DNA from: a phage
Reading direction: 5' to 3' (one strand)
Sequence record: OR896157.1
DNA: 64,000 bases
The translations under genes and the position numbers were made by a program. Below the pieces are notes generated by a model that worked only from the letters and a program-made list of their open reading frames with translations, was not told the origin of the DNA and searched no databases. Shown here in pieces: positions 7,999-36,195 of the stretch. Position 1 is the stretch's first letter, and every line of letters starts with the position of its first letter.

Positions 7999-10204
7999 CT
8001 TCACTTTCACCTTTTAAGGAAGGAGCGCTTTCCAGCGCTCTCATAATACGGGAAATATCTTCGGCATAATTAGCTACACGCCATTCGTTTAGCATATGCT
8101 CGATGACAGGATATTCTTTCTCAAACTTTTTGAATGCAGCATCTACTTCAGCTGAAGCAGCATCCGTGAGTTTATTATAAATCCGAACACATAAAGCTAA
8201 ATCTTCACGAATCTGTGAAGAACCATCAGGACTTGCCGTGATATAAGTGTTCTTCAGGTTGCGTCCGATTTCATTGATACGAGATACTCGCTCACCGTTA
8301 TCTTTGCCAGTAATGAACTTCAGCAGCCACTTTAACTCAGGAGTATTGATGATGTTACTTACAACACGACGGTTAAAGAATGTAGATGGCAGATATTCAT
8401 CAGCATCCAGGTCATCAATAATCTTGATGAATTCATCAACAATGAAACGGTCCAACGATTCAAGATTATCATTTAATTTAGCAACCTTGGCCGAGTTCGG
8501 ACGAATAACGTAAAACTCAGTTACGCCTAGTTCTTTCGCCATATTTCGAATAGTTTCAATATCTACGCCAGACCACCACAGTTCGTCAGGGAAAGTACGA
8601 ATCTCATCGCGTGAACGGAAAATTGCATAACCTTCAAGTTCCGCAATATCGTCCTTATTCATGAAGAGGTCTTCAGAAGTCCACCAACCACCTTTAGCAT
8701 CTAACTTATGCAATTGGCCGTTTGGAGATTTTGGACGCGGTCCACCATCACCTTTAGATGAGTTTGAGTAATGCTCTTTCTCAAACTTACGGTATTCTTC
8801 CATCTCAGAAGACTTCAGAATAATGATTTCGTCTTGGTCAAACAGTTTAACGATTTCATCTTTAATCTTCATATGCTTAGGTTCTTCTGGATTAAGCATA
8901 ATGAAGTTAGCATAACGATGAAAGTCTTTCAGATACATTCCGCGGAACATTGCTGCGCGACGTGAAGGCTTATCATCAATCATGATATGCACTTTATCAT
9001 TCTGAACATTCAGCAGACTTGTCACCGACATACGCTTTCTTGTGGACCACGAAGATGTTAAACGCCAGCGCTCAGAATCAATGTTTACACGGTAAGTATA
9101 AATCATTGCATCTTCGATTTTCTTTTGAATATTGTCAGTATTATAAACGTTACACCATTCAGCATAAGTCTTATCACCAAACATGATGTTCTGACGATTC
9201 AGAATAGCGCGCTGGTTTGAATCAAATTGAGACAGCTGACGAACTAACTCACGCTTATTCTCAATAGACTGAAGATGCGCAATATCAGCTTCAAGAGTAG
9301 CTTTTTCTAAGCTGTTAACACGTTTCTTGATGTTCTCAATTGTGACATCGTCCAGCGAAAGTTCTTCACGAGATGGAGTGATATCCAATTCGCCAAGAGG
9401 GAAATTGACGTAAACACATCCATAACGATTCAGAAGCCAAGAACATTCAAGACCTTGGAATTGGTCAATCGGATAAACAATCTTACCGTAAACCGCATAC
9501 AGACCACGACTATCTTTTCCAAATCCATTAGGAGAATGGAACCACTCTACATCTTGTGGGAAAGATTCAATGTTAATGCTTGCGCCAGTGATGATTGGCT
9601 TAACTGGCATAGGACGCATTACATAAGCAATTTCATACGCAAATTTTTCTACATCTTCAAGACGAACAGGAACCGTAATTTCAATACCAGTCTGCTCACC
9701 TTCTTTCATTGGTTCAACAAACAGAGGACGAATATCAGGTTCACCATTGTTCATCACAGCCATGTAACCGCGAGCTTCACCCTCGTGATAAGAAACGATA
9801 GTGAATGACTTTGTGTAGCTGAATGGAGATTTTGAACCAAGACCCAGAGCACCGATGAAATCGTTACTTTCAGCTTTTGTCGAAGCAAAGTAGCTATTGT
9901 ACAGACCAGGTTCTTCGTCATTACCACGAATCTGGAAATCACTCATACCTGGGCCAAAGTCACGAATAATGAATCGCGGGTCTAACTTATTCGGACACTT
10001 GATTTCACACGGAACATCTTGCTTTCCATTCAGAATGTGAGCATCAAGCCAGTTAGTTGTAAGCTCACGAACAACAGCACGGATTTTATTCTTATAGAGC
10101 TTATCAGACAAAATCATAAAGGCCTTTGGAGAGGCCTGAATGGTGAATTTAGTTTTCTTACCAGCAGAACCTAAAACTTCTTCATTATCAGCAATTAATT
10201 TCAT
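7991..10204 (-). CDS. rIIA: RIIA protein
   Basis: 737 aa; N-terminal block KIRAVVRELTTNWLDAH...DFGPGMSDF...LYNSYFASTKAESNDFIGALGLGSKSPFSYT matches remembered T4 rIIA. Confidence 0.9.
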   Translation of the reverse strand: MKLIADNEEVLGSAGKKTKFTIQASPKAFMILSDKLYKNKIRAVVRELTTNWLDAHILNGKQDVPCEIKCPNKLDPRFIIRDFGPGMSDFQIRGNDEEPGLYNSYFASTKAESNDFIGALGLGSKSPFSYTKSFTIVSYHEGEARGYMAVMNNGEPDIRPLFVEPMKEGEQTGIEITVPVRLEDVEKFAYEIAYVMRPMPVKPIITGASINIESFPQDVEWFHSPNGFGKDSRGLYAVYGKIVYPIDQFQGLECSWLLNRYGCVYVNFPLGELDITPSREELSLDDVTIENIKKRVNSLEKATLEADIAHLQSIENKRELVRQLSQFDSNQRAILNRQNIMFGDKTYAEWCNVYNTDNIQKKIEDAMIYTYRVNIDSERWRLTSSWSTRKRMSVTSLLNVQNDKVHIMIDDKPSRRAAMFRGMYLKDFHRYANFIMLNPEEPKHMKIKDEIVKLFDQDEIIILKSSEMEEYRKFEKEHYSNSSKGDGGPRPKSPNGQLHKLDAKGGWWTSEDLFMNKDDIAELEGYAIFRSRDEIRTFPDELWWSGVDIETIRNMAKELGVTEFYVIRPNSAKVAKLNDNLESLDRFIVDEFIKIIDDLDADEYLPSTFFNRRVVSNIINTPELKWLLKFITGKDNGERVSRINEIGRNLKNTYITASPDGSSQIREDLALCVRIYNKLTDAASAEVDAAFKKFEKEYPVIEHMLNEWRVANYAEDISRIMRALESAPSLKGESEDE

Positions 10205-10209
10205 ATTTC

Positions 10210-10416
10210 TCAGTCACAGTGTCGTTTTATTAGGTTAGCTACATCCAGAAGTTCTTCCGCAGTAGCCGTATCGGTGATAAAAATTTTATTACGAATTTCT
10301 TTAAAGCGCTCTTTGAATTCTTCAGCTTCTCCGATGTCAAAGAAGCGTTGAATGATACGATACTCTTTGTAGACAGCATCGTCGAACAGTTCAGCAGAAG
10401 GTTTTAAAGTTAACAT
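10210..10416 (-). CDS. hypothetical protein (68 aa)
   Basis: minus-strand ORF immediately downstream of rIIA-side neighbours. Confidence 0.45.
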   Translation of the reverse strand: MLTLKPSAELFDDAVYKEYRIIQRFFDIGEAEEFKERFKEIRNKIFITDTATAEELLDVANLIKRHCD

Positions 10417-10694
10417 TTGATAGTTCCTATTGAGTTAAGGATTTTCGCCATTTGTTTTATTGTATACTTTTCTCGGCGATTGTAAACCACCTTCAACGCG
10501 AACGTCCGAAGGTTCATAGGAATGGTCTGGCGAGTTTCAATACAGTTAACAATATAATCTATTGCCTGTTTGAATTTAATGTGATAGGGGTCATCTGGTG
10601 AACCTCCATGCTCAGTTAGATGTCGTTCTCCGTTCTGTTTGATACATTCTGCTACGTTTTCAAGATTTACCAAAGTTCCATCATCAAGAATCAT
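10410..10694 (-). CDS. hypothetical protein (94 aa)
   Basis: ATG at 10694 after GAGGTGA RBS. Confidence 0.5.
   Translation of the reverse strand: MILDDGTLVNLENVAECIKQNGERHLTEHGGSPDDPYHIKFKQAIDYIVNCIETRQTIPMNLRTFALKVVYNRREKYTIKQMAKILNSIGTIKC
10459..10486 (-). promoter_or_regulatory. possible early promoter (TTTACA-16-TACAAT)
   Basis: 16-nt rather than 17-nt spacer; lies inside 3-prime end of ORF 10410-10694. Confidence 0.3.
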
Positions 10695-13289: not shown

Positions 13290-14825
13290 TTATACTTTAC
13301 CTTGCAGAACGTTAGTGAACTGCGAACCACGCCAGAAGTAGCCTTGGTCATTCGGGTGAACGTTATCGCTTGAGGTATACAGATTTGCGTTCTCTGCAGT
13401 AACCCAACCTTTAACATCTACGAACTCTAAGTCTAACTCAGTAGTAAGTTCAATCAGTGCGTCACGAACCGCTGCGATTTGGTCAGTCATTCCAAGAGGA
13501 GTTGCTGGTCCAAATACGATAATTTTAGCTTGTGGCTGATATTGCTTAATCAGAGCAATAGACTCTCTGAAGTTAGTTTTAAGCAAATCAATTCTGCCAG
13601 CCGGAGCGTCATTATAGCCTAAAGCTAAAGTAATGATATCTGGAGTAAAACTCAGAGTTGCAAGCTTAGCCGTGATACGAGCTTGAGGCTGAGTTGAGTT
13701 TGTTGAAGTCCAACCAGAACCACCGATGCCATCAGCTAATCCAACTAAACCAAGCTTATCACAATAGAAACGGAAGTCGTTAAACGACGCCTGAGTTGCC
13801 ATTGTACCGAAGGTGTAAGAGTCACCAAGCTGCCAAATCATCTTAGCCGGACGAGTAATCGCAGTGATAGTTTTTCCAGTATCAACATAAATTCCACCAA
13901 AGGCAGTATTCACGCCAACCAGAGAATATTCACGCATTTGCTCAACACCGTTCCAATCGATGCTATAGATGTAAACTGCACCAGAAGAATCAGTAGTGAC
14001 TGAAGTTGCAGAAATACGTTGTCCATCCACATAAAGATCATACTTGGAGTTATTGCCAGCGAGTTTGAAATCAATTTTGCTTGAATCGGTTTTGAAATTA
14101 ACTCGGCATTGAGTTCCGTTGCCGGTACCATTTCCTCTGTATCCAGAAACAGCATCTTTGACATCAGAACCCCAATAAGTGATTTTAGCATCAGTACGAG
14201 CAATAGTTACACCAGCATAAATCGTTGAAGCTACGCCTGCATTAGTTGTTACAGTGAATTTAGCACCTGTGCCAGTTCCGCCTGTCGCTGAAATTTCACC
14301 GGTAGGAGCAGTTGCGTACACACCAGGTTTGCGAATTTGAGCTGTTGTAATTGCGCCATCAGCACCTACAGCAGTTACTCGAATCTGTCCAGGAACATCT
14401 CCTTCTGCTCCGGGGATATCAACAATATCTCCGAACACATATCCAGTACCACCAGAAATTATAGTAGCAGTTCCAGATAATCCAACGCCTTTAATCAATT
14501 TTTGAGTAGGCGGATTTGACATTACCGCAACCGGTTGAAGCATTGGTCCTAACGGCGGTTGAGGGTCTGGAACATCTACTGTATATTCGCTTAATGTGTA
14601 TTGATAACCATTTTTAGATTCAATGAAATTAACTTCACCATAATCTACATAAGCTTGTTTGAGAGTATCAATTTGAGGGGCATATTGAGGGTCAGCGTAT
14701 TCACGCCAATCTTTACCTTCTTCCTTGGCTTTAATAAGGATGTTATGAATCCACCAAGGAAGGTAAAGAAAACTTGTATTACGCCACGGAATAGGATGTA
14801 CCGTGGTCCAAATATCTATAGCCAT
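13290..14825 (-). CDS. SGNH/GDSL-family hydrolase with Gly/Thr-rich N-terminal domain (511 aa)
   Basis: C-terminal third has block I GDSYTFG, a GYND-type block (LALGYNDA) and a DNVHPND block (Asp...His catalytic pair); N-terminal region has repeated GGTG/ATGGTGTGAKFTVTT; ATG at 14825 after AAGGAGAA RBS. Confidence 0.6.
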   Translation of the reverse strand: MAIDIWTTVHPIPWRNTSFLYLPWWIHNILIKAKEEGKDWREYADPQYAPQIDTLKQAYVDYGEVNFIESKNGYQYTLSEYTVDVPDPQPPLGPMLQPVAVMSNPPTQKLIKGVGLSGTATIISGGTGYVFGDIVDIPGAEGDVPGQIRVTAVGADGAITTAQIRKPGVYATAPTGEISATGGTGTGAKFTVTTNAGVASTIYAGVTIARTDAKITYWGSDVKDAVSGYRGNGTGNGTQCRVNFKTDSSKIDFKLAGNNSKYDLYVDGQRISATSVTTDSSGAVYIYSIDWNGVEQMREYSLVGVNTAFGGIYVDTGKTITAITRPAKMIWQLGDSYTFGTMATQASFNDFRFYCDKLGLVGLADGIGGSGWTSTNSTQPQARITAKLATLSFTPDIITLALGYNDAPAGRIDLLKTNFRESIALIKQYQPQAKIIVFGPATPLGMTDQIAAVRDALIELTTELDLEFVDVKGWVTAENANLYTSSDNVHPNDQGYFWRGSQFTNVLQGKV

Positions 14826-14857: not shown

Positions 14858-15069
14858 TAAGCTTTACTAAAGAAAGGATGCTCATGGATAAAATTATGAG
14901 GCCAAGCGGCCAAAGAACGAGCATTGCGCTTTAATTGACGTAATTGTCGGCGAGTTAATGGAGTTGAAGTATAGCTTGAAATTGTACGCTTATTAATTTT
15001 GACTGAAGTCATAAAAGTCAAATCTTTGCGGTACGGATGTTTGCCAAAACTCTTTTTAATTTCCATCAT
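14857..15069 (-). CDS. hypothetical basic protein (70 aa)
   Basis: minus-strand ORF, 4-nt overlap with lipoprotein gene. Confidence 0.4.
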   Translation of the reverse strand: MMEIKKSFGKHPYRKDLTFMTSVKINKRTISSYTSTPLTRRQLRQLKRNARSLAAWPHNFIHEHPFFSKA

Positions 15070-15326
15070 TCAAACCTAATTGTAGAGTTCTTAAAGAACA
15101 TACCAGAGCAAACAGCACCCTTGACAGGAATACCCGTAGGACCTTTAGCAGTGAAACCTGTAGAGAAAGCATCTTTATCACAACTCAACCATGCGTAACC
15201 TGTGAATTCAATTTCGCTAAATCCATTAGCTTTAAGAATACGCTCTGCGCCTGTTTCATCTGTGCAACTAGACAGAATACCAATAGATAGAATAGCTGCA
15301 ATCAAACCCATTACAAACACTTTCAT
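15066..15326 (-). CDS. predicted lipoprotein (86 aa)
   Basis: signal peptide MKVFVMGLIAAILSIGILSSC with lipobox LSSC. Confidence 0.55.
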   Translation of the reverse strand: MKVFVMGLIAAILSIGILSSCTDETGAERILKANGFSEIEFTGYAWLSCDKDAFSTGFTAKGPTGIPVKGAVCSGMFFKNSTIRFE

Positions 15327-26155: not shown

Positions 26156-26346
26156 CGTCTTTCCTGCTCTGTTTTAATTGCAACCAATATTAAACCTTTA
26201 CGATAAGATTCACGAGGGTCCGCCGGAAATCCCCAACGAGTAAGTCCAGTTTCAATTTCACGTTCAAACCGTAAACGAAGCTGAGCCAATTCAGCGTCAT
26301 GATAATCTACAAGGTCTCTACCTTCAAAAATCATAAGCCAATCCAC
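26137..26346 (-). CDS. hypothetical protein (69 aa)
   Basis: minus-strand ORF. Confidence 0.4.
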   Translation of the reverse strand: MDWLMIFEGRDLVDYHDAELAQLRLRFEREIETGLTRWGFPADPRESYRKGLILVAIKTEQERRCTHSF

Positions 26347-26612
26347 TCTAAAACTTCTGGAACAGAAGCATTTTCACAATACAGATTTGTGCCAGCTACT
26401 ACCAGGTCACTTTCGCCCAGGTCTTCGATTAGCATCTTTTGGTTCTTATCTGCACCAGCTTCAAGGTCATGAATCAGCTTAGGCTTAACTTTGTCCCAGT
26501 CACCTTCAACAAACTTGATACATGGAATTGAAGTGTAATCTGCTTTAGCCATAGCTGGAACAGCAGAGCAGGATGATACAGCAAAGATTAATGCAAGTAC
26601 AAGTTTTTTCAT
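26331..26612 (-). CDS. predicted lipoprotein (93 aa)
   Basis: ATG at 26612 after GAGGAAAA RBS; MKKLVLALIFAVSSC with lipobox VSSC. Confidence 0.5.
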   Translation of the reverse strand: MKKLVLALIFAVSSCSAVPAMAKADYTSIPCIKFVEGDWDKVKPKLIHDLEAGADKNQKMLIEDLGESDLVVAGTNLYCENASVPEVLEWIGL

Positions 26613-30116: not shown

Positions 30117-31193
30117 TTAGATTTCAATTGCTTTCTTGAATTCAGCTTGCCAAATTGGTTTTTCATCAAGATATTTTTGAAGAATTTTATGCTGATATTC
30201 GAGAGTTTCAATTCTAAAGTCCTCGTCGTTTTTGATTTTATTAATTTTTTCAACAAGCTCTTGACGATTGCTCACATAGAAGAACTCATTACCTTCCATG
30301 ATATTCATGTCAGGGTCAAATGTGCTATCGAAGAATGCCACTGCAGTAGATGCCAGAGCTTCCCATACACGAGGAGTGATTTGGTTATTATCGTAAGTCT
30401 TATCACCGAGTACGATAGTAGCATACGCGGTTGAGTTACGTTGAACCATTTCACGAGAATCTACCTTCCCAGGAAATACTGGAGGAGTAGTCCAAGGGAA
30501 TTCTGGATTCTTGAATTGGTCTGCCTTTACTGAACCAAAGAACTCAACATCCAGGCCAGTGTCAAACAGATATTCAACCATCTTAGCTTCACGATTACCT
30601 GAACGGAATGTTCCACCATAAATCAGGTCACGCATTTTGATGCCATCAGCAGCAATCTTGAAGACGCTGTGATACATCTTATGACGGTCCAGTGCGAAGT
30701 GTACAAATTCCATTCGGTCTTTAGAGACACCGACTAAACGGTCAGAGTGAATTCGTTTAGCTTGTTCAAGGTCACGGCCCTGAGAAATTACGCGAATTGG
30801 AGAGCGAACAATGAACTGCTCTTCAGTGTATTTGCTGGACCATTTTTTCTTCGACATTCGGCGCCACGCTTGTTCCCACGGAAGACGAATATCAGTGAAC
30901 AGATAATAAATCTTTGACTTATATTTGTTCAAGAACATATAAGCCGCTTTATTCATCTTGTTCTCTTCACCACCGTAGAAGTTCAGAGAAGCATTAACTA
31001 CCAGAACTCGGTCATATACATTCGGGTCTGGGACATCATCAAATGCGATGCCATATTGAGTATTTTTCATTGAAATGAGGTCAACATCAAGCCCCATATC
31101 TTTTAAGCATTCGGACAGATAAATTGTCTCAGAAGCAGGGGTTGTTTTAAACCCCTGGATGTTGTTACCTAAGTTCAGGATAGCAATTTTCAT
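30117..31193 (-). CDS. bgt: DNA beta-glucosyltransferase
   Basis: 358 aa; MKIAI.N.GNN...KSKIYYLFTDIRLP...IYGG.FRSG.RE.KMVE.LFDTGL..EFFG...QFKNP..PWT..PVF.GK matches remembered T4 beta-gt; same locus. Confidence 0.8.
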   Translation of the reverse strand: MKIAILNLGNNIQGFKTTPASETIYLSECLKDMGLDVDLISMKNTQYGIAFDDVPDPNVYDRVLVVNASLNFYGGEENKMNKAAYMFLNKYKSKIYYLFTDIRLPWEQAWRRMSKKKWSSKYTEEQFIVRSPIRVISQGRDLEQAKRIHSDRLVGVSKDRMEFVHFALDRHKMYHSVFKIAADGIKMRDLIYGGTFRSGNREAKMVEYLFDTGLDVEFFGSVKADQFKNPEFPWTTPPVFPGKVDSREMVQRNSTAYATIVLGDKTYDNNQITPRVWEALASTAVAFFDSTFDPDMNIMEGNEFFYVSNRQELVEKINKIKNDEDFRIETLEYQHKILQKYLDEKPIWQAEFKKAIEI

Positions 31194-32026
31194 AAAGTAG
31201 GCTCAATCTCACTGAATTTTTTGAAAGCATCTGACTTTTGTTTCTTGGCTACGCACATACGAAGTACTTTCAGAGGCTCGTCAGTGCCAAACATAGTTTT
31301 GGTTGGGTCACCTTCTGATTTCCAACGAGCTTGAGTTGGGAAGTCAGCATGAATTTTTTCTAATGCGCGGTTTTGTTTAGCCGCATTACGCATAGATGAT
31401 ACGCCGCCTGGAGCTTGTCCTTTGCCAGATTTGACGAGATATTTGAAAATCGCCAGATGAGGATAACCCATATTAATGAGTTTAAGGAATGCGTATGTAT
31501 CTTCGGACAGGTCTACTATACCATATCCAATGTCATCAGCAGAAAGTTTGCTTAAATCGTAGAAAGTGTTAGTGAATCCATAAGAGTTCTCACGGAAATG
31601 ACCCCACTTAGAATCAATCTTGAAAATAGGCAAACGAGCATGGCCGTGATAGAATCCACAGTCCATAGCTGCTTCAACATACTGTGTGAGTTTATTGAAT
31701 TCGTCCCATGTCATTCCAACATCATGAAGAATACGACGGTCGTCTTTAGCACGAATCTCAGTGGTATGAATTGTAGTGTCATCGTCTAGCATCCAGATTC
31801 GTTGGCCTTGATACATTTCAGTAATCAAACGACGAGTACCAGCAATGCCATTTACATCATCTGGAATAGTTACGATTTTAGCTAACGCGCTGTAATGCAT
31901 CTCATATTCTTCTTTCTGAGACTCACGAACTACTAAATGAGGTACATAACCAGTAGGGAACATATCCAGGGCAGTAACTGCCCCGACACGATTGTAACTC
32001 GGAATTACAAATTGAATCATTTCCAT
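31190..32026 (-). CDS. second glycosyltransferase, GT-A-like (278 aa)
   Basis: N-terminal IPSYNR and a DDD (DxD) motif; translationally coupled to bgt. Confidence 0.5.
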   Translation of the reverse strand: MEMIQFVIPSYNRVGAVTALDMFPTGYVPHLVVRESQKEEYEMHYSALAKIVTIPDDVNGIAGTRRLITEMYQGQRIWMLDDDTTIHTTEIRAKDDRRILHDVGMTWDEFNKLTQYVEAAMDCGFYHGHARLPIFKIDSKWGHFRENSYGFTNTFYDLSKLSADDIGYGIVDLSEDTYAFLKLINMGYPHLAIFKYLVKSGKGQAPGGVSSMRNAAKQNRALEKIHADFPTQARWKSEGDPTKTMFGTDEPLKVLRMCVAKKQKSDAFKKFSEIEPTL

Positions 32027-32754
32027 TTGCCTTTGTAGTCAGATTTCTTAACATCAATCCGGCCGGTTTGACGATAATGGTCAACCAGATAGAAATGACG
32101 TTCATACACATGCAGAGACCCAGCGTTCCAAATAATGTCGCCTGGAACATATTTTTCACCAGAGCCTGCATTAACTGTTTCTACTAATGATTCTAACACA
32201 TATTTCTGCCAAGCATAATCATTGCGGAAACCAAATACAACATCATTGCTTCGCATATTAACGACAGCGTTTACACGACCATCACGAATAAGATATTGAA
32301 CTGTGTTAGTGCACATGAAATCACTCATACCATCACGTTCAAAATCAACTTGCATACTTGGACGAGTGTAAATCATAATTGCGCGGCGAGAGTCTGGTTT
32401 TTCAATCAGCTCAGTTGCACAGAATGAGAATTGATTATAGTTTTCAGCAGACCAGATTGCCCAGCCATAGTTTGAGTTAATTTCACCCTTTGAAGATGAA
32501 ACTTGTTCCCAAATTGCCGGAGTACCACCCGGAATATCTTTCACGAACAGAGACTTGGATTTGTACCACGCAAGTTCACGTTCAACATATTCTTGGTTAA
32601 CTGTTCCGAAAATTGAATCTTCGGTTACTACAAAAGATGGACCAATTAACTCAATGGTCTTTGCGCCAGTTTTGTCAATTACAAACATCTCGTTGAACAG
32701 AGCATGGCACAGTTCATCACGAATATCTTCGTTAGTCAGTGGAGTTACAATCAT
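32017..32754 (-). CDS. 42: dCMP hydroxymethylase gp42
   Basis: ATG at 32754 after GAAGAGG RBS; ELAWYKSKSLFVKDIPG...WEQV.SSKGEINSNYGWAIWS...MCTNTVQYLIRD...NAVVNMRSNDVVFGFRNDYAWQKYVL matches remembered T4 gp42. Confidence 0.9.
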   Translation of the reverse strand: MIVTPLTNEDIRDELCHALFNEMFVIDKTGAKTIELIGPSFVVTEDSIFGTVNQEYVERELAWYKSKSLFVKDIPGGTPAIWEQVSSSKGEINSNYGWAIWSAENYNQFSFCATELIEKPDSRRAIMIYTRPSMQVDFERDGMSDFMCTNTVQYLIRDGRVNAVVNMRSNDVVFGFRNDYAWQKYVLESLVETVNAGSGEKYVPGDIIWNAGSLHVYERHFYLVDHYRQTGRIDVKKSDYKGKWK

Positions 32755-33191
32755 TTTGCCTCTTCGTAGTTTTTCTTCATACAACGTTTAAATGCTTCAT
32801 ATTGGCCAGAAGACCTGAAGTTTTCAAATGCGTTGATATTTTTGCGGGTAGGATTATTATACATTGTTTGATATAAAGCAGCACCATGGAATTCAACGAT
32901 AGCTTGGCACTTACGAGCAGCTACTCGCTTTTCATAAGTAGCGTCAAGTTCTCGCTGCTTTTTCATAACGCGTGCTTGGTCACGAGCGATAGGGTCATTA
33001 GCCTGCTGCTGAGCAAGATATTCTTCGCCTTCACGAATAGAAGACTGCTTGACCTGCGGAGTTGAACGAGCATACACCAGACCAGTGCCGCCTACATACT
33101 TAACTTGCCCTACAGTACTAGCATGAACAGTGTCTCCTTGATAAGCACAACCTGCCAGTAACATAGCAGCAGCTACTGCTAAAAATTTCAT
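32751..33191 (-). CDS. predicted lipoprotein (146 aa) at the T4 imm locus
   Basis: MKFLAVAAAMLLAGC signal peptide with classic lipobox LAGC; ATGA-coupled to gene 42. Confidence 0.55.
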   Translation of the reverse strand: MKFLAVAAAMLLAGCAYQGDTVHASTVGQVKYVGGTGLVYARSTPQVKQSSIREGEEYLAQQQANDPIARDQARVMKKQRELDATYEKRVAARKCQAIVEFHGAALYQTMYNNPTRKNINAFENFRSSGQYEAFKRCMKKNYEEAK

Positions 33192-33201
33192 TTCAATATC
33201 C

Positions 33202-33426
33202 TCATCTGTGAGTTACAAGTTTATAAGTCCAATCACTTTCATCTTCACGATAGATGTTAACGATAGAAGTCTCTTTGAGTTTAGCTCGTAGATTCTTTTC
33301 AGTGATTTCAATACCATCATCAAAGAAAATCTTATCAGCACCGCCAGCACTCAGGAAGTAAAAAGTGCTTTTGAGATTGAACTTCAGTACTGGAATGTAG
33401 CTATCGTCGGTGATTGAGTAAATCAT
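33202..33426 (-). CDS. hypothetical protein (74 aa)
   Basis: minus-strand ORF. Confidence 0.45.
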   Translation of the reverse strand: MIYSITDDSYIPVLKFNLKSTFYFLSAGGADKIFFDDGIEITEKNLRAKLKETSIVNIYREDESDWTYKLVTHR

Positions 33427-33486
33427 TTTATTCTCCTTTTGTGTATAGAAGAATTATACCACATCCGTGTGGTAATGTACAATGCT

Positions 33487-36195
33487 TTAGAAATCAAACA
33501 TATTGTCTAAAGACGCTTTTTCTTCATAGTCTAATCCAGAAGCTTCTGACATACCAGCAAGTGGCTTAACGAAAGACTTTTGGAACAGAGTCGTATAGTC
33601 CAACCAAGCCAGAACATCTTGACGAATTTCCTGCGGAAGTTCAGTACCTGATGGCCAGGCGATACACTTGTCACCGAATGGGTTACCCTGACGAAGTGGA
33701 AGAACCATCACCTTGTTACCCTCGAGAATCGGAGTGACAGAGAATCCTGCCGTTGCACGATTATAAGTCAGTGCACCACGAACGTGATATGGACATTTCA
33801 GACCAGGGAAACCATTATCGTCATATTTACCAATGTCATTACAAGTTTTAACTTCTGCAATAACTTTGTAGTCCAGCTGACGATATTCCTTCTCAAACTG
33901 TTTGTAGTATTCTTGCAGTGATTCTTCGCCTTCTTGAACCATACGACGAATACTTTCTTCCAGTGCTTTCTGAACTGCTTTTGGCGTAGAAGACTGCTGA
34001 GTTTCCATGCCCATAATCTTCAAGTGTGGTTCAGCATAACGCTTATCTTCCATGTCGTAAACGTTCAGTGCATAACGTTTCTTAGCTTTCCAGAATCCAC
34101 CACAACCTTTTGAACCAAGCGGCGGACATGAAATAGCTTCTCGGTCCATGTGCATAAGATGTTCACGGTTATTGAAATATTCGCACAGTTCACGATAAGC
34201 AGTATCAATCATCGGTTCCATTTTCTTCTTACCGAATTGGTTCATAAATTCAACCACTTCGTCAGTCGTTTTGAAACGTTCAAGACCTACTTTTTCAATA
34301 ACTTTGTCAACAGAAACGTAGATTGAGTCAGTATCACCTGCTGCGATGAAATCAAATCCTTCAGTTCCACACACTTTATTCAGATACTCGTTAACTTTAC
34401 GAGCAATCCAACGAATACCTACTTGACCAAACAGTGTAATAGCAGATGCGTTACGAAGGTCATAATAACGGAAGTAGATGTTACCCAAAGCACCATAAAG
34501 ACTGTTGATAAGAATCTTACGGTTCAACTGGTTTGTGTTTGCTAGAATAGCAGCAGCTTCACATCGAGCCAGCATAGTTTCCAACACCAACTTCGTGTAC
34601 TTATTCAGTGATGCTTTCTGTTCGTCAGTGTACTGAGTGTAACGAGTTTCATCTGGAGTATCAATGTCACCGAATACGCCAGCTGCCAGAACTTTCTTAA
34701 TTTCTTCTGCGTTACGTTCTTCTGCGAACATCTTTTTCTTCCAATCTTTACGCTGGAAGAATACCTTAGCGATTTCTACTGGGATGACACCTTCAATATC
34801 TTTACGATACATCCAACCGTTCGGTGAGCAAGAATACTCGTCACTTGGACGTGGTGCAGTCTTATTGATATAAGCTTCAATATCATAAAGTTTGAATTGA
34901 CCAACAATAGTTTCCGGAGAAATATTCACCTGACGAATGATACTCGGATACAGAGATGTTAAGTCAAAACTCATGATGTACTTACGAGCGCATGCTAATG
35001 GTTCAAATACATATGCACCTGGATAACTTTGCTTGATATGACGCTTACCTTGAGGAACAACTTTGTTCTGTTCTTTCAGGGAGTTAAAGATAATTGCGTC
35101 CCAAGTTTTAATCGGAGACATTACACCACCAAACGGCATCTTGGCATAATAAGACATACTAAGTGCCAGGTCAATGAATCCACGAACTCGGTCAATACCA
35201 CCTACGGACTCAACGTCCATAATGTTATAGCTAATGTATCGTTGGTGATTTGTTTCACGAAGTTTGTTAATTGGACCATCGTATGGCAACTTACCACGTT
35301 TAGTCTCGTATAGAGCGATGTAGTCCAAGTTATAAGTTGGTTGGTTCGTGAATGAATACTTCTTGTACAAATCCATGTAATCCAGAATTGTTACACCATC
35401 AATACTGAATACTTCTTTTTCACCGTACATGTTCTGAATGAGTTTTGAATTCACTCGATTGATTGGAGAGAATCGTTTCATTGAACGTTCACCCAATACA
35501 TGCTTAACACGGTTCATGATGTATGGAATATCGAAGCCTTCAATGTTCCAACCCGTGAAGATTGCTGGACGCTTTTGTTCCCAGAGATTGATATATTCCA
35601 GAAGAAGTTCTTTCTCTGAATGGAAAGGCATGTACACTACACGGTCGAGAATATGTTGTGGAACTTCGTCTCCACCTTCTTTATCACTTCGTGCAGCTAA
35701 CTTCGCGTCCCATTCTGAAACTGAGCCATACAGAGAATCTAACAAATCGAAAACGTAGAACTTATCATCGATTGAATCATAATGAGTGATTGCATCGATT
35801 TCGTACATAGCTTTCATTGGGTCTGGGAATTTATCACCTGTAACTTCGATGTCACAGTTCGCAACACGAATGAATTTCTTGTCATAAACAATTTCAGAAC
35901 CATAAGTGTCGGAGATATAAGCGAGTTTGAAGTCATCCATACCCATGGCTTCAAGACCGATATCTTCCATACGACGAATCCAATCACGAGCATCTTTCAT
36001 GGTTGGGAATGTGTTTTTGATACATGGTTTCCCATAGATATCAAAGAACTTTGTCTTCACACCTTGTTGAGCATGAGAAAACATAGTTGGAGAATATTCA
36101 ACTCGTCGTTGACGTTCTACACCATTGGAGTCAATATAACGTTCAATGATGTCATTACCTGCGGTTTCAATAGAGATATAAAATTCTTGTGCCAT
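33487..36195 (-). CDS. 43: DNA polymerase gp43 (family B)
   Basis: 902 aa; exonuclease and polymerase motifs of family B (e.g. ...DIEV...DTDS...); matches remembered T4 gp43. Confidence 0.95.
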   Translation of the reverse strand: MAQEFYISIETAGNDIIERYIDSNGVERQRRVEYSPTMFSHAQQGVKTKFFDIYGKPCIKNTFPTMKDARDWIRRMEDIGLEAMGMDDFKLAYISDTYGSEIVYDKKFIRVANCDIEVTGDKFPDPMKAMYEIDAITHYDSIDDKFYVFDLLDSLYGSVSEWDAKLAARSDKEGGDEVPQHILDRVVYMPFHSEKELLLEYINLWEQKRPAIFTGWNIEGFDIPYIMNRVKHVLGERSMKRFSPINRVNSKLIQNMYGEKEVFSIDGVTILDYMDLYKKYSFTNQPTYNLDYIALYETKRGKLPYDGPINKLRETNHQRYISYNIMDVESVGGIDRVRGFIDLALSMSYYAKMPFGGVMSPIKTWDAIIFNSLKEQNKVVPQGKRHIKQSYPGAYVFEPLACARKYIMSFDLTSLYPSIIRQVNISPETIVGQFKLYDIEAYINKTAPRPSDEYSCSPNGWMYRKDIEGVIPVEIAKVFFQRKDWKKKMFAEERNAEEIKKVLAAGVFGDIDTPDETRYTQYTDEQKASLNKYTKLVLETMLARCEAAAILANTNQLNRKILINSLYGALGNIYFRYYDLRNASAITLFGQVGIRWIARKVNEYLNKVCGTEGFDFIAAGDTDSIYVSVDKVIEKVGLERFKTTDEVVEFMNQFGKKKMEPMIDTAYRELCEYFNNREHLMHMDREAISCPPLGSKGCGGFWKAKKRYALNVYDMEDKRYAEPHLKIMGMETQQSSTPKAVQKALEESIRRMVQEGEESLQEYYKQFEKEYRQLDYKVIAEVKTCNDIGKYDDNGFPGLKCPYHVRGALTYNRATAGFSVTPILEGNKVMVLPLRQGNPFGDKCIAWPSGTELPQEIRQDVLAWLDYTTLFQKSFVKPLAGMSEASGLDYEEKASLDNMFDF

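What the first reader, a model, noticed from the sequence alone, without database searches (positions are those of the whole stretch)
32751..33191. Lipoprotein occupying the imm locus, plus two further phage lipoproteins
Between gene 42 and gene 43, where T4 encodes the Imm superinfection immunity membrane protein, this phage encodes a 146-aa protein with a classic lipobox (MKFLAVAAAMLLAGC). Two more predicted lipoproteins lie at 15066-15326 (LSSC) and 26331-26612 (VSSC). Phage lipoproteins commonly mediate superinfection exclusion or receptor masking, so three may indicate layered exclusion functions.
Basis: partly seen in the sequence, partly recalled or inferred. Interest (0 to 1): 0.5.

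Follow-up and report, generated by a model that had tools for sequence, protein, structure and literature searches.

The report
Imm.1-like phage lipoprotein, Imm absent
The lipoprotein gene between the DNA polymerase and dCMP hydroxymethylase genes of this T4-like Enterobacter phage has not replaced the T4 immunity gene imm: it is the counterpart of imm's uncharacterised neighbour imm.1, kept in a phage that has lost imm, and relatives of it have been captured by bacterial mobile islands, which points to a role in the cell envelope, probably against other phages.

Summary

The interpretation needs correcting. The window is a Karamvirus (PG7/CC31-like). T4 has two genes between 43 and 42: imm.1 and imm. 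T4 Imm.1 is itself a LAGC lipoprotein. It and the window protein both match PHROG 1754 over their full length (6e-43 and 2.4e-41). In four related genera the homologue sits beside an intact imm. So the lipoprotein is the Imm.1 counterpart. Imm is missing here, and also from a complete Karamvirus genome.

The "VSSC" protein is Spackle, a known exclusion factor. In T4 it is a soluble periplasmic protein cleaved after residue 22. The "LSSC" protein is a gp39.1-family lipoprotein of unknown function.

New points:
- The Imm.1-like gene evolves faster than its neighbours (dN/dS 0.08-0.33 against 0-0.03).
- It moves together with imm to a site beside sp in Mosigvirus.
- A 598-bp phage fragment (this gene plus a stub of gene 42) lies in an Enterobacter kobei integrative island, near a type II methyltransferase gene.

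No function is demonstrated. An early, outer-membrane-anchored envelope or exclusion factor is the best inference.

The parts
32751..33191 (-). Imm.1-family lipoprotein gene (146 aa; PHROG 1754)
   Evidence: ORF. PHROG 1754 at 2.4e-41 over residues 1-142. T4 Imm.1 hits the same PHROG at 6e-43. 58 phage records carry it. dN/dS 0.08-0.33.
33147..33191 (-). Signal peptide, codons 1-15 (MKFLAVAAAMLLAGC). Lipobox LAGC is at 33147-33158 and the lipid-attachment Cys15 at 33147-33149. Residue +2 is Ala.
   Evidence: PROSITE-like rule met. L12, G14 and C15 are invariant in 18 diverse homologues including T4 Imm.1. No family member has Asp at +2.
33051..33146 (-). Conserved N-terminal tether and motif of the mature protein (aa 16-47: AYQGDTVHASTVGQVKYVGGTGLVYARSTPQV)
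   Evidence: This is the best-conserved segment of the family. It is disordered in the first AF2 model and forms a small beta-hairpin (31-33/37-39, pLDDT about 65) in the second. It is the only part that aligns directly with T4 Imm.1.
32763..33047 (-). C-terminal helical domain (helices 49-64, 67-112, 116-143) with invariant Cys95 (32907-32909) and Cys137 (32781-32783)
   Evidence: AF2 pLDDT 84-96 over residues 71-140. C95 and C137 are invariant across the family including T4 Imm.1. That they form a disulfide across the hairpin is inferred, not measured.
33199..33203 (-). Shine-Dalgarno GAGGA, 7 nt before the ATG; overlaps the stop codon of the upstream 74-aa ORF
   Evidence: Read directly from the sequence.
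33202..33426 (-). 74-aa ORF between gene 43 and the lipoprotein gene; function unknown
   Evidence: ORF. No hit in Pfam, PHROG or PADLOC and only a sub-threshold NCBIfam match (CedD, E 0.073). 100% identical in PG7. Absent from this slot in the other lineages examined (Merlin has an unrelated 79-aa ORF).
33453..33481 (-). Sigma-70-like promoter candidate (TGTACA-17-TATAAT with TG) in the gap between gene 43 and the 74-aa ORF; overlaps a hairpin at 33457-33474
   Evidence: Consensus scan and sequence. A consensus match only.
32856..32880 (-). MotA-box-like middle promoter candidate (TGCTTTA-N12-TATAAT) inside the lipoprotein gene, about 100 nt upstream of gene 42
   Evidence: Pattern search: 14 matches in the window against 5.25 expected. 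A consensus match only.
32017..32754 (-). Gene 42 (dCMP hydroxymethylase); its start overlaps the lipoprotein stop (ATGA), leaving no room for imm
33487..36195 (-). Gene 43 (DNA polymerase), the upstream anchor of the locus
26331..26612 (-). Spackle (Sp, T4 gp61.3) homologue, 93 aa. The predicted 22-aa signal ends AMA|K. VSSC lies inside the signal peptide.
   Evidence: Pfam T4_Spackle 3.5e-30; PHROG 1586 4e-33. T4 Sp is MKKFIFATIFALASCAAQPAMA|G. N-terminal sequencing of T4 Sp.
15066..15326 (-). gp39.1-family small lipoprotein (86 aa, LSSC, Cys21)
   Evidence: PHROG 902 3.5e-28. 1063 phage records; SP18 annotates it gp39.1. Nearly all of 48 homologues listed keep a hydrophobic N-terminus and the Cys; 34 pass a strict lipobox pattern. 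T4 gp39.1 lacks the signal peptide.

Best explanation
SHOWN. The 146-aa ORF is a genuine, conserved gene of the Imm.1 family (PHROG 1754). The same family sits immediately downstream of DNA polymerase gene 43 in T4 and most Tevenvirinae, usually beside imm. This Karamvirus keeps the gene but has no imm anywhere.

INFERRED FROM SEQUENCE RULES. [quoted passage not shown] It would project into the periplasm a short conserved N-terminal segment (QGDxVxAxxVGQVKYxGGTGLVY), followed by a helical hairpin probably stapled by a Cys95-Cys137 disulfide.

INFERRED FUNCTION. It is made in the first minutes of infection and acts in the envelope of the infected cell as a stand-alone protective or exclusion factor. 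It would interfere with the periplasmic stage of infection by secondary T4-like phages. It would cooperate with Imm (inner membrane) and Spackle (periplasm) where these are present, but would not depend on Imm.

The conserved N-terminal motif is proposed to dock onto a conserved envelope or phage component. The fast-evolving helical domain is proposed to give specificity. The confidence figure refers to the functional part. Family identity and the positional correction are about 0.9.
For: Identity: PHROG 1754 full-length hits for the window protein (2.4e-41), T4 Imm.1 (6e-43), Mosigvirus Imm.1, SP18 gp45 and S16 gp27. L12, G14, C15, G28, C95 and C137 are invariant in an 18-sequence alignment that includes T4 Imm.1.

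Synteny:
- 43-imm.1-imm-42 in T4
- 43-lipo-imm-42 in S16, Merlin and Jiaodavirus
- 43-imm-(47 aa)-lipo in SP18, VR25 and a metagenomic contig
- in Mosigvirus the imm.1-imm pair lies elsewhere, directly beside sp

Independence from Imm: no Imm in the window. No Imm in the complete Karamvirus genome EcL8g with a 6-sequence Imm HMM (best E 0.045; positive controls 1e-41). Several other phage lineages are 43-lipo-42 or 43-lipo-SIS without imm in the fetched locus.

Timing: T4 Imm.1 is classed early-RNA/early-protein, the same class as Sp (PMC9697503, supplementary files 4 and 6). Here it is translationally coupled to gene 42 and preceded by a promoter-like site.

Fast evolution: 92.5% amino-acid identity to PG7 against 99.4-100% for gp42, gp43, b-gt and orf74; 24% to T4 against 69-78% for gp42 and gp43. 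dN/dS is 0.31-0.33 against 0-0.03 for gp42/gp43/orf74 in the comparisons with PG7 and UFV01, and 0.08 against EcL8g.

Capture by bacteria: P0005 (74% identical) lies in an Enterobacter kobei chromosome, on an island of about 9 kb. The island carries a large serine recombinase, an HTH_3 regulator, a resolvase, a type II methyltransferase (PADLOC 6e-140), an unknown 299-aa ORF and an IS. The inserted 598 bp are 87.8% identical to a phage contig and include 111 nt of gene 42, so the direction of transfer was phage to bacterium. A second island with the same backbone carries a very different allele (P0020) in the same slot.
Against: There is no experimental evidence for any Imm.1-family protein, and I found no paper on imm.1 or DUF5481 function.

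From memory of Lu & Henning 1989 (not re-read here): plasmid-borne imm alone causes exclusion of T4, and disrupting imm in the phage abolishes immunity. So Imm.1 is not needed for, and does not replace, Imm-type immunity in T4.

The window protein has no match in PADLOC, in Pfam DUF5481 or in solved or predicted structures.

Direct profile-profile similarity to T4 Imm.1 is significant only over the signal peptide plus 16 residues (96.7% probability). It is not significant on the mature parts alone (P 0.01, probability 4%).

Bacterial occurrences are rare: three contigs. There are none in 185,579 species-representative genomes, in plasmids or in complete E. coli genomes.

dN/dS is below 1, so relaxed constraint rather than an arms race could explain the fast divergence.

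The link to a defence function through an island with a methyltransferase gene is guilt by association.
Confidence: 0.4

Rival explanations
1. Receptor masking from the periplasmic side, as T5 Llp does with FhuA or Cor does in T1/phi80-like phages. The outer-membrane lipoprotein would bind the phage's own outer-membrane receptor. That would block adsorption of further phages and protect progeny from inactivation by cell debris.
For: Predicted outer-membrane lipoprotein with no Asp at +2. Early expression of T4 Imm.1. Fast divergence between genera. Presence on bacterial islands. T5 Llp is an early lipoprotein of this kind (abstract of bioRxiv 10.64898/2026.03.26.714494 and PMC9586334, listed).
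Against: Imm.1 is at least 95% identical in 502 Tequatrovirus records. From general knowledge, that genus includes phages using different receptors (OmpC/LPS, Tsx, FadL, OmpA), so the protein does not track receptor choice. Classical T-even exclusion acts after adsorption. Hits to the Cor PHROG in relatives cover only the signal peptide (E 0.02-0.12). There is no similarity to Llp or Cor in sequence or fold.
Confidence: 0.15
2. An envelope function unrelated to excluding other phages. Examples: inhibiting a periplasmic peptidoglycan hydrolase or protease; stabilising the outer membrane or peptidoglycan during infection (resistance to lysis from without, or lysis timing); or countering a host envelope stress or defence response.
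For: Periplasmic, disulfide-containing small proteins of T4 include the lysozyme inhibitor Spackle. In the E. kobei island the neighbouring gene encodes a secreted protein with a weak LprI (lysozyme inhibitor) match (E 0.012, below the cut-off). The gene is retained without Imm.
Against: No similarity to known lysozyme inhibitor families. The LprI hint is sub-threshold and concerns a neighbouring gene. It does not explain why bacterial islands would keep the gene unless it protects cells, which merges with the best explanation. Spanin or lysis roles are not supported: only signal-peptide-level PHROG hits in relatives (E 0.17-0.29), and no adjacent i-spanin.
Confidence: 0.25
3. Obligate helper of Imm: Imm.1 only targets or assembles the inner-membrane protein Imm at injection sites. 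In phages without Imm it would be a decaying remnant.
For: Adjacency to imm in six genera, and joint relocation of imm.1-imm in Mosigvirus.
Against: The gene is intact, has a strong Shine-Dalgarno and is under purifying selection in Karamvirus, which has no Imm. It is conserved in 33 Karamvirus-like records at 80-97% identity. Several other lineages without adjacent imm keep it. The bacterial islands carry it with no imm among their called genes.
Confidence: 0.07
4. One reading: an unrelated lipoprotein gene displaced imm and took over its locus and role.
For: Imm is absent and a lipoprotein gene lies between 43 and 42.
Against: The lipoprotein family coexists with imm at the same locus in related genera, and T4's own imm.1 belongs to it. 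So the lipoprotein is the ancestral resident and imm was lost (or never gained), not replaced.
Confidence: 0.03

Closest known systems
T4 Imm.1 (gene imm.1, NP_049661, UniProt P18057; Pfam DUF5481; PHROG 1754)
   Same: Same PHROG with full-length hits. Same slot immediately downstream of gene 43, on the same strand. The same L-A-G-C lipobox with Cys15. A shared post-Cys motif (QGxxVxxSxVGxV) and an invariant C-terminal Cys pair. Similar size. T4 Imm.1 is an early protein.
   Different: Only 24% identical. No hit to the narrow Pfam model DUF5481. Direct profile-profile similarity is limited to the first 31 columns. T4 Imm.1 lacks the GGTGLVY segment and has an extra Cys pair. In T4 the gene is followed by imm; here it is not. 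No function is reported for either in the papers I could search.
T4 Imm (Pfam PF14373, Imm_superinfect)
   Same: Same genomic neighbourhood in T4. Envelope location. Early expression.
   Different: Imm is an 83-aa, very hydrophobic inner-membrane protein with no lipobox. The window protein has no such segments and no PF14373 match. No Imm homologue exists in the window or in a complete Karamvirus genome.
T4 Spackle (gp61.3, PF25676)
   Same: Small, early, exported, helical, disulfide-containing periplasmic protein. In Mosigvirus it is encoded directly next to imm.1-imm. A true homologue is present in this window at 26331-26612.
   Different: No sequence or fold similarity to the 146-aa protein. 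Spackle is released as a soluble protein after cleavage at residue 22. Its target (gp5 lysozyme) is known.
T5 Llp and Cor (T1/phi80-type) superinfection-exclusion lipoproteins
   Same: Phage-encoded outer-membrane lipoproteins, made early or from prophages, that protect the infected cell at the envelope. This is an analogy in way of working only.
   Different: No homology. Llp is about 60 aa and binds FhuA. The Imm.1 family does not follow receptor specificity within Tequatrovirus.
T4 gp39.1 family (PHROG 902), for the ORF at 15066-15326
   Same: 55-69% identity over the mature domain to gp39.1 homologues of many T4-like phages. Same position after gene 39, followed by the 39.2-like zinc ribbon.
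   Different: T4's own gp39.1 (65 aa) has no signal peptide. Here and in most homologues the domain is preceded by a lipoprotein signal.

Membership tests
Bacterial lipoprotein (SPase II / Lgt substrate) | Positively charged n-region, hydrophobic h-region, and lipobox [LVI][ASTVI][GAS]C with Cys at positions 15-35 | tested here: met
MKFLAVAAAMLLAGC: K2, 9 hydrophobic residues, L-A-G-C, Cys15.
Bacterial lipoprotein (SPase II / Lgt substrate) | Lipobox Cys conserved in homologues | tested here: met
   L12, G14 and C15 are invariant in 18 sequences down to 19% identity.
Bacterial lipoprotein (SPase II / Lgt substrate) | Score from a dedicated predictor (SignalP/LipoP); lipidation shown by globomycin sensitivity or palmitate labelling | not testable with these tools
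   No such predictor or experiment was available.
Imm.1 family (PHROG 1754) | Significant full-length match to the family profile that contains T4 Imm.1 | tested here: met
   Window protein 2.4e-41, residues 1-142 on profile positions 2-147 of 148. T4 Imm.1 6.1e-43.
Imm.1 family (PHROG 1754) | Position just downstream of gene 43 on the same strand, normally next to imm | tested here: met
   The position after gene 43 is met. The imm neighbour is absent in this phage.
Imm.1 family (PHROG 1754) | Direct similarity of the mature domain to T4 Imm.1, independent of the PHROG model | tested here: inconclusive
   hhalign gives 96.7% probability, but only for columns 1-31. On mature parts alone, P 0.01 and probability 4%. 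The BFVD fold search returned only a close family member, not T4 Imm.1. The invariant Cys pair and the G28 motif are shared.
Pfam DUF5481 (PF17578; T4 Imm.1 in the narrow sense) | Match to the Pfam model above the gathering score | tested here: not met
   No hit at E up to 1 for the window protein. T4 Imm.1 scores 5e-72 and Mosigvirus Imm.1 8e-10.
Imm (PF14373, Imm_superinfect) | Match to the Imm model; small hydrophobic inner-membrane protein | tested here: not met
   No PF14373 hit. tblastn and an Imm HMM find nothing in the window or in the EcL8g genome, while the controls give 1e-41.
Spackle (PF25676), ORF 26331-26612 | Match to the T4_Spackle model; synteny between genes 61 and 41; 22-residue signal ending AxA; two Cys in the mature part | tested here: met
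   3.5e-30 over residues 1-91. It lies next to gp41. The signal is MKKLVLALIFAVSSCSAVPAMA|K, with Cys31 and Cys80. Cleavage after residue 22 was shown only for T4 Sp.
Cor / Llp-type exclusion lipoproteins | Sequence or fold similarity to Cor (PHROG 1119) or Llp | tested here: not met
   No hit for the window protein. Relatives hit Cor only over residues 1-19, the signal peptide, at E 0.02-0.12.
o-spanin (Rz1-like) | Lipoprotein gene embedded in or adjacent to an i-spanin gene within a lysis cassette | tested here: not met
   The neighbours are genes 43 and 42. Relatives show only signal-peptide-level PHROG hits (E 0.17-0.29).
Known anti-phage defence proteins (PADLOC) | Match to any PADLOC model | tested here: not met
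   No hit for the window lipoprotein or for the gp39.1-like protein.

The most novel reading that the evidence does not exclude
The Imm.1 family would be an unrecognised third component of T-even superinfection exclusion: an outer-membrane lipoprotein acting alongside Imm (inner membrane) and Spackle (periplasm). It would be potent enough on its own that Karamvirus phages rely on it without Imm. Bacterial integrative islands would have repeatedly taken it from T4-like phages as a stand-alone defence gene against those phages.
Probability: 0.3. Interest if true: 0.7.

Novelty: new member of a known kind. Interest (0 to 1): 0.5.

Why it matters
T4 superinfection exclusion has long been described as a two-gene system (imm and sp). 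imm.1, next to imm, is expressed early but has no function in any paper I could find.

This locus shows four things about the imm.1 family:
- it is a conserved lipoprotein family;
- it moves together with imm;
- it survives where imm is lost;
- bacteria have captured it together with a stub of a phage gene.

This gives a concrete hypothesis that is cheap to test, by plasmid expression and deletion mutants in T4 itself. If it holds, it adds an outer-membrane layer to a textbook system and a new phage-derived defence gene on bacterial islands. If it fails, the gene remains an ordinary conserved hypothetical lipoprotein.

Tried and rejected
1. Direct homology to T4 Imm.1. BLASTP and hhalign support only the first ~30 residues. 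Mature-only hhalign is not significant. The family link therefore rests on PHROG 1754, synteny and the invariant residues.
3. Pfam, NCBIfam and PADLOC gave no informative hit for the 146-aa protein.
4. Searching for more bacterial copies. There were none in GTDB representative genomes with two different queries, none in plasmids, and none in complete E. coli genomes for the second island. Two alignments were too diverse for the search for related loci.
5. Imm elsewhere in the genome: rejected.
6. A coupling of Imm with a neighbouring lipoprotein outside the T4-like phages. Sa179lw and PhAPEC5 have Imm but no lipobox neighbour.
7. Literature on imm.1 or DUF5481: nothing on function. The 1989 and 1993 Lu & Henning papers are not held.
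8. Spanin, Cor or Llp identity: rejected; only signal-peptide matches.
9. The idea that Spackle is a lipoprotein, because LASC/VSSC is conserved. I did not adopt it, because T4 Sp purified from the periplasm starts at residue 23.
10. A resemblance of the GD(T/I/V)VxA motif to TonB boxes is recalled from memory and was not tested.
Full report
**Origin of the window.** The segment 32000-34000 is 97-98% identical to Enterobacter phages of the genus Karamvirus (fGh-Ecl04, PG7, CC31 relatives; Straboviridae, Tevenvirinae). On the minus strand the gene order is: gene 43 (33487-36195), a 74-aa ORF (33202-33426), the 146-aa ORF (32751-33191), gene 42 (32017-32754), a beta-glucosyl-HMC-alpha-glucosyltransferase-like gene (31190-32026), and b-gt (30117-31193).

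**Observation check.**
- It has a GAGGA Shine-Dalgarno 7 nt upstream, and its TGA overlaps the ATG of gene 42 (ATGA).
- I applied a PROSITE-style lipoprotein rule to every ORF of at least 40 aa in six frames.
- The gene is present in 58 phage records and is under purifying selection, so it is real.

**What the main ORF is.** T4 has two genes between 43 and 42: imm.1 (125 aa) and imm (83 aa).
- Translating T4 imm.1 gives MKIAILVIALGLAGCVAQGPVVNQSDVGKIV..., so it is itself a LAGC lipobox protein.
- The window protein and T4 Imm.1 both match PHROG 1754 over their full length (2.4e-41 and 6.1e-43). So do Mosigvirus Imm.1, SP18 gp45 and S16 gp27. The Jiaodavirus protein matches the sister family phrog_18344 and also PHROG 1754 (1.9e-15).
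- In an 18-sequence alignment reaching down to 19% identity, the invariant positions are L12, G14, C15 (the lipobox), G28, C95 and C137.
- Caveats: the narrow Pfam model of T4 Imm.1 (DUF5481) does not detect the window protein. Direct profile-profile alignment is significant only for the signal peptide plus 16 residues. A BFVD fold search recovers only a close relative.
- I therefore call it a member of the Imm.1 family in the PHROG and positional sense, not of DUF5481.

**Synteny settles the interpretation.**
- S16 (Gelderlandvirus), Merlin (Moonvirus) and a Jiaodavirus have 43-lipoprotein-imm-42.
- SP18, VR25 (Gaprivervirus) and a metagenomic contig have 43-imm-(47-aa Y02C)-lipoprotein.
- In Mosigvirus PhAPEC2 the imm.1-imm pair lies elsewhere, directly upstream of sp (dmd-imm.1-imm-sp).
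- So the lipoprotein is an old resident that normally accompanies imm. It is not a replacement for imm.
- What is special here is that imm is missing. tblastn with three Imm proteins finds nothing in the window. An HMM of six Imm proteins finds nothing in the window or in the complete 172,768-bp genome of Karamvirus EcL8g (best E 0.045 and 0.0046 on non-coding frames; controls 2e-41 and 6e-43).
- The 4-nt overlap with gene 42 leaves no remnant of imm.
- Other uncultured lineages also have 43-lipoprotein-42, or 43-lipoprotein-SIS-NTP transferase, with no imm in the fetched locus.

**Anatomy.**
- There is no Asp at +2 in any family member. By the Lol sorting rule of Enterobacteriaceae this predicts outer-membrane anchoring; this is an inference.
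- The two invariant cysteines lie on the two long helices at roughly matching distances from the turn. A disulfide staple is inferred, not measured.
- No solved or predicted structure resembles it specifically.

**Expression.**
- A sigma-70-like site with an extended -10 lies in the gap between gene 43 and the 74-aa ORF. A MotA-box-like site lies inside the gene, upstream of gene 42. Both are consensus matches only.
- In T4, Imm.1 is classed early-RNA/early-protein, like Sp (PMC9697503, supplementary files 4 and 6).

**Evolutionary behaviour.**
- The lipoprotein is 92.5% identical to PG7's, while gp42, gp43, b-gt and the 74-aa ORF are 99.4-100% identical.
- Against Merlin, S16 and T4 it is 40%, 37% and 24% identical. 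gp42 and gp43 are 69-82% identical in the same comparisons.
- dN/dS is 0.31-0.33 against PG7 and UFV01, where gp42, gp43 and orf74 give 0-0.03 (b-gt against UFV01 is 0.14). Against EcL8g it is 0.08.
- The family is narrow: 14 clusters at 50% identity among 1.84 billion representative proteins.

**Capture by bacteria.**
- P0005 (74% identical) is encoded in a 346-kb Enterobacter kobei contig. It lies between chromosomal T2SS/amidase genes and ABC-transporter genes, on an island of about 9 kb.
- The island carries a large serine recombinase, an HTH_3 regulator, a secreted 213-aa protein, the lipoprotein, a resolvase, a type II methyltransferase (PADLOC 6e-140), an unknown 299-aa ORF and an IS.
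- Directly after the lipoprotein gene comes a truncated gene 42 (MIVTPLVNEDIRDEL...KTIELI, then divergence).
- At DNA level, 477 bp match the window at 78%. A 598-bp stretch matches a phage contig at 87.8%, running from 34 nt upstream of the start codon to 111 nt into gene 42. The direction of transfer was therefore phage to bacterium.
- Two further contigs have the same island backbone (HTH_3 82% and the downstream region 79% identical). They carry a very different family allele (P0020; nearest phage relatives 39%) in the same slot.
- Such copies are rare.

**The other two ORFs.**
- 26331-26612 is Spackle (PF25676 3.5e-30; PHROG 1586), in the expected place next to gene 41.
- T4 Sp has the same lipobox-like Cys15 (LASC), but N-terminal sequencing of periplasmic T4 Sp shows removal of 22 residues (PMC7650644; also PMC7677548). 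So it is a real exclusion factor but, on current evidence, not a lipoprotein.
- 15066-15326 belongs to the gp39.1 family (PHROG 902; 1063 phage records).
- Among the 48 homologues listed, nearly all show a hydrophobic N-terminus followed by the conserved Cys (visual reading), and 34 pass a strict lipobox pattern. T4's own gp39.1 lacks the signal peptide. Its function is unknown.

**Mechanism.** My best inference (about 0.4) is an early, outer-membrane-anchored periplasmic factor. It would protect the infected cell, or on islands the host cell, against incoming T4-like phages, and would act independently of Imm.
- Supporting it: linkage with imm and sp, early timing, fast evolution and bacterial capture.
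- Receptor masking of the Llp type is less likely, because Imm.1 is at least 95% identical across 502 Tequatrovirus records.
- An obligate Imm-helper role is contradicted by the gene's retention without Imm.
- A non-exclusion envelope role remains open.
- Nothing here is experimental.

**Verdict.** The protein is a new member of a known but uncharacterised family. Interest is moderate, because the comparative data turn imm.1 into a testable candidate for an additional exclusion or defence function.

Noticed in passing
L015 3967-4561 (= L019 about 9967-10561), Enterobacter kobei GCA_032579055.1 contig ABNQQD010000001.1: A 598-bp fragment of T4-like phage DNA (the Imm.1-like lipoprotein gene plus the first 111 nt of gene 42) lies inside a serine-recombinase/HTH_3/resolvase island that also carries a type II methyltransferase. 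A sister island (L017/L018) carries a different allele of the same family in the same slot.
   Followed up: yes
window 26331-26612; T4 sp (L013 2259-2552); PhAPEC2 sp (L007 1741-2034): The signal peptides of three distant Spackle proteins all keep a lipobox-like Cys at position 15 (LASC, AVSC, VSSC), followed by an AxA site at residue 22. T4 Sp released by osmotic shock starts at residue 23, but that preparation would not recover a lipid-anchored fraction. Why the Cys is conserved is unexplained.
   Followed up: partly
L014 1799-1996 (T4 gene 39.1) compared with window 15066-15326: T4 gp39.1 (65 aa) has no signal peptide and has stop codons upstream in frame. Nearly all other homologues are lipobox proteins. 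The family also occurs in Acinetobacter chromosomes (P0069, P0072-P0074).
   Followed up: partly
window 13290-14825 (-): A 511-aa ORF next to the gp39.1-like gene has a C-terminal GDSL/SGNH hydrolase domain (PF13472, 3.9e-18). A related record annotates it as 'capsid and scaffold'. T4 has no gene in this position.
   Followed up: no
window 32856-32880 (-): A perfect MotA-box plus -10 (TGCTTTA-N12-TATAAT) lies inside the lipoprotein coding sequence, about 100 nt upstream of gene 42. This suggests a middle promoter for gene 42 embedded in the gene.
   Followed up: no
L002 4637-5014 (T4 imm.1, NC_000866): RefSeq names T4 Imm.1, and the RB18 copy, 'iduronate sulfatase'. Nothing in the sequence or in Pfam (DUF5481) supports that name, so it looks like an annotation error.
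   Followed up: partly
L007 999-2034 (Mosigvirus PhAPEC2): imm.1, imm and sp are contiguous (dmd-imm.1-imm-sp-61.2). This phage therefore has the known exclusion genes and imm.1 in a single cluster.
   Followed up: partly
L015 4717-4985 and L017 4053-4309: Repeated segments of about 120-130 bp, conserved between the two islands, lie next to the small resolvase/invertase gene. They may be recombination or inversion sites.
   Followed up: no
L019 9251-9892: The secreted 213-aa protein encoded just upstream of the island's lipoprotein gene has a sub-threshold match to the lysozyme inhibitor LprI (PF07007, E 0.012).
   Followed up: no
L016, L021, L022: In several uncultured T4-like phages the Imm.1-like gene is followed by SIS-domain and NTP-transferase genes instead of gene 42. 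These may be a sugar-nucleotide pathway for DNA modification.
   Followed up: no
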